A program made the translations under genes and the position numbers. A model generated the notes under the pieces. The model was not told where the DNA came from, did no database searches, and worked only from the letters and a program-made list of their open reading frames with translations. A stretch of 64,000 nucleotides of DNA from Eledone cirrhosa (Eukaryota): contig OZ024764.1 of NCBI GenBank assembly GCA_964016885.1, positions 10,478,001 to 10,542,000 on the forward strand, read 5' to 3'. The stretch's first letter is position 1, and every line of letters begins with the position of its first letter. Shown in pieces: positions 7-58,928 of the stretch.

Positions 7-128
7 GTAATAGGAAAAAGTATGACCCCGATGGCAGAGCTCAAGCCGTTTCGATGGCTATTTCAGTCCAGAAATAGCCGTCGAAATGGCTTGAGCTCTG
101 CCGTCGGGGTCATACTTTTTCCTATTAC
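7..128. mobile_element. Fold-back palindrome of the 'GAAACGGC' hammerhead-associated element (3' half of a type I HHR)
   Basis: Near-perfect inverted repeat centred on gctatttc-agtcca-gaaatagc. The right arm reads gtc-GAAA(T/C)GGC-ttgagctct-GCCGTC-ggggtc (HHR stem III plus GUC site). Same element at 16375, 17405, 19261, 21885, 38900, 58754. Confidence 0.75.
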
Positions 129-281
129 ACATATATATATATATATATATATACATATACATATATAAACATATATACATACATATATATATATACATAC
201 ATATACATACATACATACATGTATGTGTATATGTATGTATAAAACTCATGACTTTTTGTTCTTGAGGTGAATGGAGTAGGT

Positions 282-346
282 CTATAAAGTTTCACAATGG
301 GTGTAACATATGATTGGGGTCTTTTGTTCATATTTAATTGGATTAA
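282..346 (-). CDS. Possible terminal coding exon (VNPIKYEQKTPIICYTHCETL*), unidentified gene
   Basis: Acceptor tgtctttccttgttgtag on the minus strand; phase compatible with the phase-1 donor at 17735; unique sequence. No homology recognised. Confidence 0.2.
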
Positions 347-357
347 CTACAACAAGG

Positions 358-1355
358 AAAGACACATTAGATAATGTAGTCCTAGATACTCTGTGTCTGT
401 ATGTAAGACAGGACACATTAGATAATGTAGTCCTAGATACACTGTGTCTGTATGTAAGACAGGACACATTAGATAATGTAGTCCTAGATACACTGTGTCT
501 GTATATAAGACAGGACACATTAGATAATGTAGTCCTAGATACACTATGTCTGCATGTAAGACAGGACACATTAGATAATGTAGTCCTAGATACACTGTCT
601 GTATATAAGACAGGACACATTAGATAATGTAGTCCTAGATACACTATGTCTGTATATAAGACAGGACACATTAGATAGTGTAGTCCTAGATACACTATGT
701 CTGCATGTAAGACAGGACACATTAGATAATGTAGTCCTAGATACACTGTCTGTATATAAGACAGGACACATTAGATAATGTAGTCCTAGATACACTGTGT
801 CTGTATATAAAACAGGACACATTAGATAATGTAGTCCTAGATACACTGTGTCTGTATGTAAGACAGGACACATTAGATAATGTAGTCCTAGATACACTGT
901 CTGTATATAAGACAGGACACATTAGATAATGTAGTCCTAGATACACTATGTCTGTATATAAGACAGGACACATTAGATAGTGTAGTCCTAGATACACTGT
1001 CTGTATATAAGACAGGACACATTAGATAATGTAGTCCTAGATACACTGTGTCTGTATATAAGACAGGACACATTAGATAATGTAGTCCTAGATACACTGT
1101 GTCTATATATGACAGGACACATTAGATAATGTAGTCCTAGATACACTGTGTCTATATATAAGACAGGACACATTAGATAATGTAGTCCTAGATACACTGT
1201 GTCTGTATATAAGACAGGACACATTAGATAATGTAGTCCTAGATACACTGTGTCTATATATGACAGGACACATTAGATAATGTAGTCCTAGATACACTGT
1301 GTCTGTATATAAAACAGGCCACATTAGATAGTGTAGTCCTAGATACACTGTGTCT
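358..1355. repeat. 51-bp (49-bp variant) minisatellite, about 19-20 copies
   Basis: Unit gacaggacacattagataatgtagtcctagatacactgtgtctgtatataa in tandem; runs into a SINE-like 3' end (gactgacctggggctaaacaacaacaac, about 1420-1450). Confidence 0.95.
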
Positions 1356-1761
1356 GGATAAAAGTCAGAATGTTCACAGCTGGAACATCTTTGATCCTAT
1401 CATAGGTCTGCTCGTTGAGGACTGACCTGGGGCTAAACAACAACAACAATTATAACAACAATGGCACTACTCTATGAAACTAGGAGTGGGCTCTACAAAG
1501 CCATAAGCAGCTGTCCATCTCCACCTCTGTATTATCGCATCAAATAAATATTTAATCAATATATGTATCGGTATTGATGCAGTGCCTGACAAAGACTCTG
1601 ACCTACCGATTGCATTTGATCTCTTATTGATCTGGTCAGTATATGTTCGACAAATCACGTTACTAAATTATGCCCAATACACTCTGCAATGCTATGCTCT
1701 GTTGTCTAGGAGGCTGAATATTGTTTTTTTGTTTTTATGTGCCATGTGGTATTTATGGGGT

Positions 1762-3838
1762 TAAACCTTTCATTACAATATTTCTAATGAAAGATACCGT
1801 TGGTGTTTGGAACATAACTTAACAAAGGTTCTTACATAAAATGATAATAAAATTATAAAGTTTTTATATAAATATAAACACTCTAACCCTTTCATTACCA
1901 TATTTCTAATGAAAGAGACTGTTGGTGTTTGGAACATAACTTAACAAAGGTTCTTACATAAAATGATAATAAAATTATAAAGTTTTTATATAAATATAAA
2001 CACTTTAACCCTTTCATTACCATATTTCTAATGAAAGAGACTGTTGGTGTTTGGAACATAACTTAACAAAGGTTCTTACATAAAATGATAATAAAATTAT
2101 AAAGTTTTTATATAAATATAAACATTTTAACCCTTTCATTACCATATTTCTAATGAAAGAGACTGTTGGTGTTTGGAACATAACTTAACAAAGGTTCTTA
2201 CATAAAATGATAATAAAATTATAAAGTTTTTATATAAATATAAACACTTTAACCCTTTCATTACCATATTTCTAATGAAAGAGACTGTTGGTGTTTGGAA
2301 CATAACTTAACAAAGGTTCTTACATAAAATGATAATAAAATTATAAAGTTTTTATATAAATATAAACACTTTAACCCTTTCATTACCATATTTCTAATGA
2401 AAGAGACTGTTGGTGTTTGGAACATAGCTTAACAAAGGTTCTTACATAAATATAAACACGTTAACCCTTTCATTACCATATTTCTAATGAAAGACACTGT
2501 TGGTGTTTGGAACATAGCTTAACAAAGGTTCTTACATAAATATAAACACTTTAACCCTTTCATTACCATATTTCTAATGAAAAACACTGTTGGTGTTTGG
2601 AACATAGCTTAACAAAGGTTCTCACATGATAATATGATGGAAGGTTTTTAGATAAATATAAACACTTTAACCCTTTCAATACCATATTTCTAATGAAAGA
2701 CACTGTTGGTGTTTGGAATATAACTTAACAAAGGTTCTTACATAAATATAAACACGTTAACCCTTTCATTACCATATTTCTAATGAAAAACACTGTTGGT
2801 GTTTGGAACATAGCTTAACAAAGGTTCTTACATAAATATAACCACTTTAACCCTTTCATTACCATATTTCTAATGAAAGACACTGTTGGTGTTTGGAACA
2901 TAGCTTAACAAAGGTTCTTACATAAATATAAACATTTTAACCCTTTCATTACCATATTTCTAATGAAAGACACTGTTGGTGTTTGGAACATAGCTTAACA
3001 AAGGTTCTCACATGATAATATGATGGAAGGTTTTTAGATAAATATAAACACTTTAACCCTTTCAATACCATATTTCTAATGAAAGACACTGTTGGTGTTT
3101 GGAATATAACTTAACAAAGGTTCTTACATAAATATAAACACGTTAACCCTTTCATTACCATATTTCTAATGAAAAACACTGTTGGTGTTTGGAACATAGC
3201 TTAACAAAGGTTCTTACATAAATATAACCACTTTAACCCTTTCATTACCATATTTCTAATGAAAGACACTGTTGGTGTTTGGAACATAGCTTAACAAAGG
3301 TTCTTACATAAATATAAACATTTTAACCCTTTCATTACCATATTTCTAATGAAAGACACTGTTGGTGTTTGGAACATAGCTTAACAAAGGTTCTTACATA
3401 AATATAACCACTTTAACCCTTTCATAACCATATTTCTAATGAAAGACACTGTTGGTGTTTGGAACATAGCTTAACAAAGGTTCTCACATGATAATATGAT
3501 GGAAGGTTTTTAGATAAATATAAACACTTTAATCCTTTCAATACCATATTTCTAATGAAAGACACTGTTGGTGTTTGGAATATAACTTAACAAAGGTTCT
3601 TACATAAATATAAACACGTTAACCCTTTCATTACCATATTTCTAATGAAAAACACTGTTGGTGTTTGGAACATAGCTTAACAAAGGTTCTTACATAAATA
3701 TAAACACTTTAACCCTTTCATTACCATATTTCTAATGAAAGACACTGTTGGTGTTTGGAACATAGCTTAACAAAGGTTCTTACATAAATATAAACACTTT
3801 AACCCTTTCATTACCATATTTCTAATGAAAGACACTGG
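1762..3838. repeat. Minisatellite with 122/90/116-bp unit variants
   Basis: Unit begins ttaaccctttcattaccatatttctaatgaaag; unit starts at 1884, 2006, 2128, 2250, 2372 (122 bp), then mixed 90- and 116-bp units. Confidence 0.95.
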
Positions 3839-56870: not shown

Positions 56871-57449
56871 AGTAAAGTTGTCAACCAGTGTTCTAAATAG
56901 CCTGCCAAGTCATGCTGTCAGCATGACTTGGCAAGCTATTTAGAACACTGGTTTAACCGCTTTACTTCTCTCCGAAGAAGAGATATTATCTCGAAAATTA
57001 AGGACATTTAAATAAATCTAAGGTAAAAGACTAATTGTCAACAATATCTTTTATATATATATATATAAATATATGCATATATATATATATATATATACAT
57101 ATATTTATATATGTATATATATATATATATACATATATTTATATATATATATATATACATATATATATATATATATACATATATTTATATATATATATAT
57201 ATATACATATATTTATATATATATATATATATACATATATTTTATATATATATATATATATACATATATTTATATATATATATATATATATATATACATA
57301 TATTTATATATATATATATATATATATATATATATACACATTTATTTATATATATATACATATATTTATATATATATATATAACACATATATATACATAT
57401 ATTTATATATACATACATATATATATATATATATATATATATATATATA

Positions 57450-57575
57450 TATATGAAAGACGTAAAATAAGAAAATTATAAAAATTAACTTACTTACTAA
57501 AATTTCACTCAAACTAATAAATAACTAGTAAGTAAGTTAATTTTTATAATTTTCTTATTTTACGTCTTTCATATA
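57450..57575. repeat. AT-rich inverted repeat, about 50-bp arms
   Basis: atgaaagacgtaaaataagaaaattataaaaattaacttacttacta and its reverse complement. Confidence 0.85.
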
Positions 57576-57939
57576 ATTGTTCTGCATCCCCTTGCATTGA
57601 ACCACAAAGTTACTAAGACAAAACCTATATATTTGCTAGCATAGGTATGCATCTGTATATATATGTTGGTAGATATACTAATTCTTTATATATATATATA
57701 TACATATATACATATATATACACACACACATATATATACACACACACACACACACACACATATATATATATATATATATATATATATATATATATATATA
57801 TATATATCAAATCCTACTTTCCAAAGCATTGGCCATCCTCAGGCCACAAAGAGGGACTGGGGCTCAAACCTCATGGTTGTGAAATGAACTCTTTAACCAC
57901 ACAGCCCATACCTGTGACTATTTTCATTATTATTGACAA

Positions 57940-58560
57940 GGGCGGTGGATTGGCAGTATCGGTAGAGGGTCAGACGCCATGCTTTCCAGCATAGTTACGT
58001 CCCTTTACAGTCTGAGTTCAAATCCCGCCTAGGTCAACTTTGCCTTTTCATCCTCACGAGGTCGATAAAATAAAGTACCAGTAATGCACTGGATAATTGC
58101 TGGCCTTGTGCCTAAAGTAGAAACAATTATTATTGACATTGGCAGTGGATTGGCAGTATAGGTAGAGGGTCAGACGCCATGCTTTGACGCATAGAGTTAC
58201 GGCCCTTGCCATTACTGAGTTCAAATCCGCCGAGGTTGACTTTTGCCTTTCATCCTTACAGGGTCAATAAAATAAAGTACCAGTAATGTACTGGGTATTT
58301 TGCTGGCCTTGTGCCAAAAGTAGAAAACAATTACTACTTTGGGCAGTAACGGCAGAGAGTCGAGCGCCATGCTTTGCAGCATAGAGTTACGGCCCTTTAT
58401 GGTCTGAGTTCAAATCCCGCCGAGGTTAACTTTGCCTTTCATCCTTACGGGGTCGATAAAATAAAGTACCAGTCACTCACTGGGGTTGATTAAATCGACT
58501 TTCCCCCTCCTCCCAAATTGCTGGCCTTTGTTCCCTATATAATAAGAAACCATGAAACAA
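57940..58560 (+). mobile_element. Three tandem SINE family A copies
   Basis: Heads at about 57940, 58141, 58340; (ATT)n tail. Confidence 0.9.
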
Positions 58561-58753
58561 TTATTATTATTATTATTATTATTATTATTATTATTATTGT
58601 GGTTGTTGTTGTTGTTGCACATATTTTCTTAAATAGCATGCTGCACACCTATATCTCTCTCTCTAACTATTTATCTATCTATCTATCACATTTCTCTCTC
58701 TCTCTCTCTCGACTATATATATATATATTAATATATATATATATATATTAGAA

Positions 58754-58928
58754 GGAACAAGTATGACCCCGACGGCAGAGCTCAAGCCGCTTCGACGGCT
58801 AATTCTGGAGACCAGAACTTAGCCGTCGGGGTCATACTTGTTCCTATTACCCACTCCACTACCCCTAAGTATTGAGTACTCTGGCGCGTTATGGTCCATC
58901 TGGTTCCTTACCGCAATTCCTTCATTAT
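58754..58928. mobile_element. 'GAAACGGC' element fold-back copy, right arm deleted between the two GCCGTC
   Basis: gacggctaattctgg-aga-ccagaacttagccgtc-ggggtc plus full tail. Confidence 0.75.

What the first reader, a model, noticed from the sequence alone, without database searches (positions are those of the whole stretch)
7..58928. A ribozyme family that always folds back exactly at its own stem II
Seen: five palindromes (7-128, 17405-17523, 19259-19371, 21885-22000, 58754-58845) and two half copies (16375-16500, 38900-38955). They share gacggctaWttc-loop-gaaWtagccgtc followed by GAAACGGC-ttgagctct-GCCGT-C-ggggtc, i.e. HHR stem II, GAAA, a 5-bp stem III, a GUC site and a stem I 3' strand. 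Where CUGANGA should be, each palindrome has the reverse complement of the downstream sequence. The loops differ between copies (agtcca, tggact, tgtaca, duplicated loop), suggesting independent events. Inference: cDNA copied through the strong stem II hairpin self-primes and copies back, giving 5'-inverted inserts that lose the catalytic core. Prediction: the master element has GACCCC-CTGANGA directly 5' of gacggcta.
Basis: partly seen in the sequence, partly recalled or inferred. Interest (0 to 1): 0.8.

Follow-up and report, generated by a model that had tools for sequence, protein, structure and literature searches.

The report
Palindromic stubs of Penelope-like retroelement
The palindromes are real, but they are stub-sized insertions of a very common Penelope-like jumping gene whose two copied strands are joined head to head near a fixed start point, and the supposed ribozyme hairpin at their centre is mostly that join rather than a structure of the parent element.

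Summary
The five palindromes and two half copies exist, plus an eighth, tail-only fragment. They sit in (TA)n; in the two complete tailed copies one arm is 77-82 nt longer. Nine of 11 unrelated inverted inserts in the window share this anatomy, the published Penelope-like (PLE) 'inverted truncated copy plus tail'. It is not a MITE. Two of the 'different loops' are one loop read on opposite strands. The 5' ends do pile up (7 of 8 insertions within 15 nt). The predicted master (CTGANGA directly before gacggcta) was not seen: reads and contigs of three organisms continue upstream of AGTCCA into a shared AT-rich stretch with no CTGANGA in the 30 letters shown. A sister family with an intact hammerhead also has a fixed 5' edge, about 90 nt upstream of its core, so stem II is not the general cause. 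Best reading: cDNAs from two start sites run off a fixed RNA 5' end, probably the transcription start, and are joined there. The GAAA/stem III/GUC half is plausible, but no catalytic core was found and one contig only hints at a long-loop stem II. A rare short-loop master is not excluded.

The parts
1..128 (-). Insertion 1: long arm (1-64, runs off the window edge), loop 65-70, short arm 71-128 ending at (TA)n; same form as 17406 on the other strand
16368..16504 (-). Insertion 2: long arm only, diverged subfamily, 5' end at the loop position against (TA)n
17406..17604 (+). Insertion 3: inverted short arm 17406-17461, loop 17462-17467, long arm 17468-17604 with tail 17524-17604; (TA)n on both sides; reference for the reads
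17479..17508 (+). Hammerhead-like 3' half: C, GAAA (17480-83), stem III (17484-17500) with GAGCTC loop palindrome, GUC (17500-02), GGGGTC; no catalytic 5' core found
19260..19370 (.). Insertion 4: symmetric, two short arms, centre 19313-19317; needs a template that already carried a hairpin of at least 7 bp around AGTCCA
21885..22082 (+). Insertion 5: perfect palindrome 21885-22000 centred on TGTACA (both strands read native TG, then TA), tail 22001-22082
22274..22346 (-).
38899..38955 (-). Insertion 7: short arm only, ends in the supposed stem II against TA
58754..58929 (+). Insertion 8: short arm, junction 58806-58814 (both strands read TGG after the arm), long arm lacking GAAA/stem III, tail
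53594..54046 (+). Control, family B: same anatomy with an intact hammerhead core in both arms, inversion about 80 nt upstream of the core, tail 87 nt

Best explanation
The copies are stub insertions of the terminal repeat (pLTR) of a Penelope-like retrotransposon family that targets (TA)n. Steps. (1, shown as anatomy) Each full insertion is a short arm and a long arm joined head to head, 3' ends outward, the long arm about 80 nt longer. (2, inferred from published PLE biochemistry) The element's protein nicks both target strands and starts reverse transcription at two internal RNA sites, one per strand; their distance is the tail. (3, inferred) Both sites lie only 60-140 nt from a fixed 5' end of the RNA at or near the A of AGTCCA, probably the transcription start, so both cDNAs run off there. 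(4, partly shown) The two identical cDNAs are joined at their ends, blunt, by 2-4 nt of microhomology or with a TA filler, or one is joined to the target (half copies) or to a shorter partner (variable joints in reads). The '12-bp stem II with a 6-nt loop' is this join. The parent continues upstream as AT-rich sequence. The GAAA-stem III-GUC segment is probably the 3' half of a hammerhead whose core, if it exists, lies more than 30 nt upstream of the loop and is cut off from nearly every copy.
For: Anatomy: tails of 82 and 77 nt, (TA)n at 12 of 15 assessable ends against 24% of the window; 9 of 11 other inverted inserts show one arm flush with (TA)n and 29-87 unpaired nt on the other side. Matches Craig 2021 (PMC8557442, section 6) and Arkhipova 2013; two start sites, both strands extended, uncleaved RNA as template in Frangieh 2024 (PMC11167929, parts 1-2). 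Two cDNAs: in 19259, 21885 and 58754 both strands read arm-then-TG, and 8 of 10 palindrome arms have CA directly 5' of GAA, as in the native AGTCCA; one X8 contig shows another such junction. Native AT-rich continuation: X1 93 contigs, X14 1010 reads, X4 1 contig, X8 1 contig, organisms A, A, B, E; compared by eye they agree over about 25 nt. Fixed 5' edge without a hairpin role: 5 of 8 family-B arms share ends at -85 to -91 from an intact core. D. virilis Penelope has an internal promoter with a defined start in its pLTR (PMC2377424, passages).
Against: No parent element or ORF was found: no whole genome, no GIY-YIG hit in 76 peptides of the window. No RNA data bear on the start site; Inr-like T(C/T)AGTC and a TATA-like stretch about 30 nt upstream are recalled Drosophila motifs, the latter seen in a consensus of agreement 0.47. 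The loose-end consensuses are weak (0.47, 0.6), X14 is a reduced-representation library that may count few loci many times, and X4 and X8 give one contig each, both of the GAATT variant, so the upstream sequence of the GAAAT subfamily (copies 7, 17405, 19259) is not shown separately. The exact TGGACT|G junction is about twice as deep in X1 as the native continuation (at least 157,000 against 83,000, table 3), occurs twice in the window in the same orientation, and 19259 needs a template that already had a 7-bp hairpin: a hot spot, a remobilised palindrome or a native short stem in that subfamily is needed on top of this model. Family-B ends come from pairwise alignment limits in 8 arms. Tails of 77-82 nt are longer than the published 30-40 nt.
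Confidence: 0.6

Rival explanations
1. Long-loop stem II. The parent has a complete hammerhead whose stem II (about 9 bp, CGGCTATTT with AAATAGCCG) closes an AT-rich loop of about 33 nt. Once the RT has copied the 3' strand, the RNA stem re-forms and displaces the cDNA end, so cDNAs stop a few bases into the loop and are joined there. Structure, not the RNA 5' end, sets the breakpoint. Compatible with the PLE identity.
For: One X4 contig continues through the AT-rich stretch into letters that read CGGCTATTT in sense, and the X1 consensus ends in ATTT at the same register (table 7). Sister hammerheads in the window have stem II plus loop of up to 31 and 36 nt. GAAA lies at the usual distance from the arm end.
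Against: One contig; its remaining 56 loose letters were not shown; the two letters beyond the stem do not pair with the TC before GAAA. Families B, C and K keep their stem II intact, and B has its fixed edge 90 nt upstream of the core.
Confidence: 0.15
2. One reading: the parent has CTGANGA directly before a 12-bp stem II with a 6-nt loop, and one cDNA self-primes on the copied hairpin.
For: The TATTTC-loop-GAAATA hairpin occurs in 3 window copies and is the commonest loop-spanning form in X1; 19259 needs such a template; self-priming at palindromes is a published proposal for PLEs.
Against: No loose end at 17450 or 17479/80 among the 24 listed; the listed continuation is AT-rich in three organisms; in X4 all depth at 17468 is the non-hairpin letter. 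21885, 58754 and an X8 contig have junctions in which both strands stop inside the loop and never copy a 5' stem strand.
Confidence: 0.1
3. A palindromic non-autonomous master (MITE-like or PLE-mobilised) spreads as a unit; the junction variants are later DNA-level rearrangements of the hairpin.
For: Copies 7 and 17405 share junction and orientation; that junction is abundant in organism A; 19259 (two short arms, no tail) is what a transcript of such a palindrome read towards its short arm would give. Likely true for a fraction of copies.
Against: The two ends of a full copy are not inverted repeats; arms are 0-3 mismatches apart within copies while the tails of different copies are 85-92% identical; junctions differ among subfamilies and species; many joints in reads have a variable second side; non-palindromic continuations exist.
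Confidence: 0.1
4. The motif is no hammerhead remnant; the family is a ribozyme-less PLE (Naiad-like) or another (TA)n-targeting retroelement, and GAAA..GUC is a chance likeness inside a GC-rich hairpin region. This concerns only the ribozyme label and overlaps with the best explanation.
For: No core in window or listed loose ends; no compensatory change in stem III in 13 arms; GCCGT-CGAA-ACGGC folds as well as stem III; the arm folds no better than shuffles (z 0.35 to 0.61 on the sense strand); read depth is level across the GUC site.
Against: Position of GAAA matches sister hammerheads; C before GAAA; GAGCTC loop palindrome kept across subfamilies and giving homodimers of -21.9 to -27.3 kcal/mol (5-55 of 1000 shuffles as good), as in dimeric PLE hammerheads (PMC4209133, parts 1-2). 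The 3' end of Naiad_Obim in the Craig supplement is a different sequence.
Confidence: 0.25

Closest known systems
Insertions of endonuclease-bearing Penelope-like elements (Penelope/Poseidon, Neptune, Naiad): inverted 5'-truncated copy plus tail at one end (Craig et al. 2021, PMC8557442; Arkhipova et al. 2013, PMC3846280)
   Same: Head-to-head inverted arm, tail on one arm only, palindromic junction, heavy 5' truncation, (TA)n targets as for Neptune and Naiad.
   Different: Whole insertion under 200 nt, no ORF; tail 77-82 nt rather than 30-40; sharp 5' edge that falls 18 nt before GAAA, inside the supposed ribozyme; parent not identified.
Poseidon of Anolis (PAc) in vitro (Frangieh et al. 2024, PMC11167929)
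   Same: Two internal RT start sites that define the tail, both target strands nicked and extended, AT-rich targets, uncleaved RNA as template: the ingredients of the two-cDNA model.
   Different: That work does not show joining of the two cDNAs; there the ORF begins in stem II, here length differences among subfamilies argue against coding in the arm.
Minimal, dimer-acting type I hammerheads of PLEs (Cervera and de la Pena 2014, PMC4209133)
   Same: C-GAAA, NUH, self-complementary loop 3, place near the pLTR end.
   Different: No CUGANGA box found; stem III has 4 GC pairs plus a 9-nt loop, longer than in minimal motifs.
Animal non-LTR retrozymes (bioRxiv 10.64898/2026.07.22.740005, part 1 of 5 read)
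   Same: Short non-coding PLE-related repeats with hammerhead motifs.
   Different: No head-to-tail tandem monomers, no complete ribozyme per unit.
MITEs with TA duplication (recalled)
   Same: Short, palindromic, high copy, next to TA.
   Different: No terminal inverted repeats at the true ends, variable centre, half copies and tail-only copies.

Membership tests
EN+ Penelope-like element | Parent ORF with PLE RT and GIY-YIG endonuclease | not testable with these tools
   No genome held; 76 window peptides gave RVT_1 in 3 (LINE-like fragments elsewhere in the window) and no GIY-YIG
EN+ Penelope-like element | Inverted 5'-truncated copy joined head to head | tested here: met
   5 of 8 insertions
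EN+ Penelope-like element | Tail on one arm only | tested here: met
   82 and 77 nt in the two complete tailed copies; longer than the published 30-40 nt but like sister families here; 19259 has none
EN+ Penelope-like element | Preference for (TA)n (Neptune, Naiad) | tested here: met
   12 of 15 assessable ends within 12 nt of (TA)5+, background 24%; loose ends at both termini in reads are (TA)n
EN+ Penelope-like element | Target-site duplication | tested here: inconclusive
   Hidden in the microsatellite
Type I hammerhead ribozyme | CUGANGA box 5' of stem II | tested here: not met
   0 of 12 arm regions; absent from the 30 letters shown upstream of the loop in 4 runs; sequence further upstream not seen
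Type I hammerhead ribozyme | C11.1-GAAA, stem III, NUH | tested here: met
   17479-17502; 95% of 60 cells paired
Type I hammerhead ribozyme | Self-complementary loop 3 for dimers | tested here: met
   GAGCTC in all three variants folded; dimer energies
Type I hammerhead ribozyme | Compensatory changes in stems | tested here: inconclusive
   None in 13 arms; copies are too alike to expect many
Type I hammerhead ribozyme | Match to Rfam hammerhead models | tested here: inconclusive
   None at gathering score in the window and none among 150 of 172 rows shown at E<=10 for 16000-23000; one search also missed the intact minimal motifs of sister families, so it is insensitive here
Type I hammerhead ribozyme | Self-cleavage at NUH | not testable with these tools
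   DNA read depth is level across GUC, so inserted copies come from uncleaved RNA
MITE | Terminal inverted repeats at fixed ends | tested here: not met
   Ends of full copies are TTCCTAT on one side and TTCGTTATA on the other
MITE | Uniform internal sequence and length | tested here: not met
   Four junction types in five palindromes, half and tail-only copies, many joints in reads
Non-LTR retrozyme | Head-to-tail tandem monomers each with a complete hammerhead | tested here: not met
   No tandem array of the unit
Naiad clade | Identity with published Naiad consensuses | tested here: inconclusive
   No family motif hit in an animal Naiad in the supplement (line breaks can hide hits); Naiad_Obim 3' end differs; the 3' end of Naiad_Ovul was not read

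The most novel reading that the evidence does not exclude
The transcription start of this PLE lies inside loop II of its own hammerhead. Transcripts then begin with a disarmed half ribozyme and carry a complete one only in the downstream repeat. Reverse transcription started near the 5' end runs off at that start on both target strands, so the genome fills with tens of thousands of perfect hairpins whose centres map the start site and record twin-cDNA joining, and which could be a large source of double-stranded RNA for editing.
Probability: 0.15. Interest if true: 0.65.

Novelty: new member of a known kind. Interest (0 to 1): 0.3.

Why it matters
How PLEs make their inverted ends is still open (self-priming on an antisense template, or two cDNAs). 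A young, high-copy family with a sharp 5' edge and junctions that can be read base by base makes that question testable from one assembly. It also warns that a 'stem II' at the centre of such a palindrome can be the junction itself. If the host is an octopus (my recalled guess from its repeats, not tested), the family bears on its unusually high load of near-perfect dsRNA and hyper-editing (PMC5625713, passages). The anatomy itself is ordinary for PLEs and common in this window.

Tried and rejected
Whole-genome search for the predicted master: no genome held. Pattern scans of metagenome, viral (20, 32) and prokaryote contigs (31): 0 matches each. Run search: no RNA holder listed. Rfam: no hammerhead; the microRNA hits are generic hairpins far below gathering scores. 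Type II or III hammerhead inside the arm: no CTGANGA or relaxed core in any arm region. Cleavage at the GUC of stem III as cause of the breakpoints: depth is level there. Cleavage at the GTC inside AGTCCA: no GAAA partner in the 30 letters upstream (by eye). Arm as coding sequence: no Pfam hit and length differences among subfamilies. Short intron in the AT-rich stretch: no GT donor, too short (by eye). Full-text search for four family motifs: 1 unrelated paper. Searches for a published description of such a family or of breakpoints piling at a PLE hammerhead gave only the general PLE papers cited; the library lacks most subscription papers and Repbase/Dfam were not searched, so the family may already be catalogued. 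The arm-mismatch figure for 19259 and three rows of the stem extension used wrong offsets and were dropped; one search gives the right values. Four weak BLAST rows (E 0.083 or more) were dropped. Of 24 inverted hits, 6 belong to this family, 12 were read, 11 of these were measured (14079-14137 left out as weak) and 6 were not examined. Microsatellite rows of family D were ignored. Only 4 of 16 listed runs could be laid. Supplements of the bioRxiv preprint were closed and might hold related repeats.

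
Full report
Setting. The window is 35% GC, rich in (TA)n and satellites, with LINE-like RT fragments. It looks like an animal genome; an octopod is my guess from recalled repeats, not a result. No whole genome is held.

Observation. A BLAST of one arm against the window gave 13 strong arm hits from 8 insertions. 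Stems are exact over 56, 68 and 58 bp in 17405, 19259 and 21885 and have 3 mismatches in 58 bp in copy 7, whereas the last 100 nt of four long arms are 85-92% identical to each other. So the two arms of a copy were made from one template. The loops agtcca and tggact are one loop on opposite strands. The palindromes are lopsided: one arm stops at TTCCTAT against (TA)n, the other runs 77-82 nt further to TTCGTTATA and (TA)n. Twelve of 15 assessable ends lie within 12 nt of (TA)5+, against 24% of the window. Seven of 8 5' ends lie within 15 nt of each other, P about 3e-4 under uniform truncation of independent copies.

What it is. Craig et al. 2021 (PMC8557442; passages, section 6 and supplement searches) describe for PLEs an inverted 5'-truncated copy at the 5' end, a tail at one end only and (TA)n targets for Naiad and Neptune. 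Arkhipova et al. 2013 (PMC3846280, passages) describe palindromes at the inverted junction and propose self-priming. The window holds many more inserts of this build: of 11 other inverted repeats measured, 9 have one arm flush with (TA)n and 29-87 unpaired nt on the other side, and 6 carry a CTGANGA..GAAA core. One family appears three times with three different centres (23195, 42588, 54368). The build is therefore ordinary here. The ends are not terminal inverted repeats and the centre varies, so this is no MITE; there is no tandem array, so no retrozyme.

The prediction. I laid 4 of 16 listed runs on 17395-17622 at 80% likeness: X1 23,813 contigs, X14 23,679 of 12.5 million reads, X4 52 and X8 7 contigs; organisms A, A, B, E. 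The family is thus abundant and shared among species. A parent with CTGANGA directly before gacggcta would leave the reference at 17450 or 17479/80. None of the six loose ends listed per run lies there (477 weaker ones were not shown). At the loop the listed loose ends (93 contigs in X1, 1010 reads in X14, one contig each in X4 and X8) agree by eye on an AT-rich stretch ending ATTT-AGTCCA in sense, with ACCA or GCCA about 20 nt upstream, no GACGGCTATTTC and no CTGANGA in 30 letters. This fits the window: 8 of 10 palindrome arms have CA directly 5' of GAA. Limits: agreement is 0.47 and 0.6; X14 is a reduced-representation library; the X4 and X8 contigs carry the GAATT variant, so the GAAAT subfamily is not shown separately. 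One X4 contig runs on into letters that read CGGCTATTT in sense, a possible 5' strand of a stem II with a loop of about 33 nt; its other 56 letters were not shown.

Junctions. In 21885 both strands read arm, TG, then TA. In 58754 both read arm, TGG. In 19259 both read arm, TGGACT. One X8 contig reads arm, TGGAC, then AGTCTA and the other arm. These look like two identical cDNAs that stopped 2-6 nt past the arm and were joined; none needs a copied 5' stem strand except 19259. Reads add many joints whose one side is at 17457-17466 and whose other side is anywhere from 17494 to 17555. Against a pure version of this model, the form arm-TGGACT-arm occurs twice in the window in the same orientation, is about twice as deep in X1 as the native continuation, and 19259 needs a template that already had a 7-bp hairpin. 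A remobilised palindrome, a microhomology hot spot or a native short stem in that subfamily must account for this; I could not separate them.

Why here. Family B keeps an intact core and a 31-nt stem II plus loop in all 8 arms, yet 5 of them share 5' ends at -85 to -91 from the core. A fixed 5' edge thus exists without any role of stem II. In both families the edge begins with A-(C/G)-T, and here T(C/T)AGTC resembles the Drosophila initiator (recalled; about 0.7% chance in a 7-nt window, chosen after the fact). D. virilis Penelope has an internal promoter and a defined start in its repeat (PMC2377424, passages). Frangieh et al. 2024 (PMC11167929, parts 1-2 of 4 and passages) showed nicking and extension of both strands, two internal start sites that define the tail, and uncleaved RNA as template. 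Run-off of two cDNAs at the RNA 5' end follows from these, but joining and start site are inferred, not shown. Earlier notes of this scan on other genomes report similar pile-ups; they are unchecked leads, not support.

Is it a ribozyme? For: C-GAAA, stem III, GUC; GAAA 43 nt from the short-arm end as in four sister families (41-61 nt; two others 7 and 176 nt); a GAGCTC loop that lets two molecules pair, as in PLE hammerheads (PMC4209133, parts 1-2 of 4). Against: no core, no compensatory change, a competing hairpin over GAAA, no excess folding, no Rfam hit (insensitive here). As inserted, no copy can be an active hammerhead. I put the remnant reading at about 70%.

Verdict. Real, PLE-type (about 85% for the class, 60% for the full mechanism), architecture and the self-priming idea already in print. 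My searches found no description of this family or of a 5' edge inside the ribozyme, within a library that lacks most subscription papers. What remains of interest is the sharp edge and the readable junctions. Interest 0.3.

Noticed in passing
window 11802-12135, 21599-21743, 23195-23471, 39188-39324, 42588-42692, 53594-53958, 54066-54196, 54368-54903, 56786-57051, 57455-57570, 61345-61435: Eleven other inverted inserts from about nine families, nine of them with one arm flush with (TA)n and a tail on the other; six carry a CTGANGA..GAAA core. The window is crowded with PLE-type hairpin inserts.
   Followed up: partly
window 13441, 27792, 36226, 42431, 43889, 53693, 53859, 59141: Family B: eight arms with an intact minimal hammerhead-like core; five share a 5' edge at -85 to -91 from the core.
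   Followed up: partly
window 38706 (+), 59576 (-), 28045 (-): Further intact hammerhead-like motifs at the ends of other repeats, without an inverted arm nearby.
   Followed up: no
window 21885-22346: A full insertion and a tail fragment 72 of 73 nt identical to it lie 190 nt apart with 3' ends facing; reads also show long-arm end, a few TA, then a short arm (130 reads, 14 starts). Local or repeated insertion into the same TA tract.
   Followed up: no
window 16343-16368: The long arm of the diverged copy is followed by about 25 non-TA letters before the microsatellite; possibly a longer tail in that subfamily.
   Followed up: no
window 17462-17502: The segments ending in the two GCCGTC motifs resemble each other as a short direct repeat; 58754 lacks the 23 nt between them.
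   Followed up: partly
window 28706-28784: Perfect 37-bp inverted repeat with a 5-nt loop inside a CT/GA-rich tract.
   Followed up: no
window 13773-13843 (-): tRNA-like match, 35.3 bits, probably a SINE head.
   Followed up: no
window 11206-11904, 39519-40235, 44644-46185, 63122-63508: LINE-like RT fragments; RVT_1 hits in the first three.
   Followed up: no
window 31091-34301, 4598-8956, 49733-52728: Long satellites of 45, 54 and 65 nt with 71, 82 and 46 copies.
   Followed up: no
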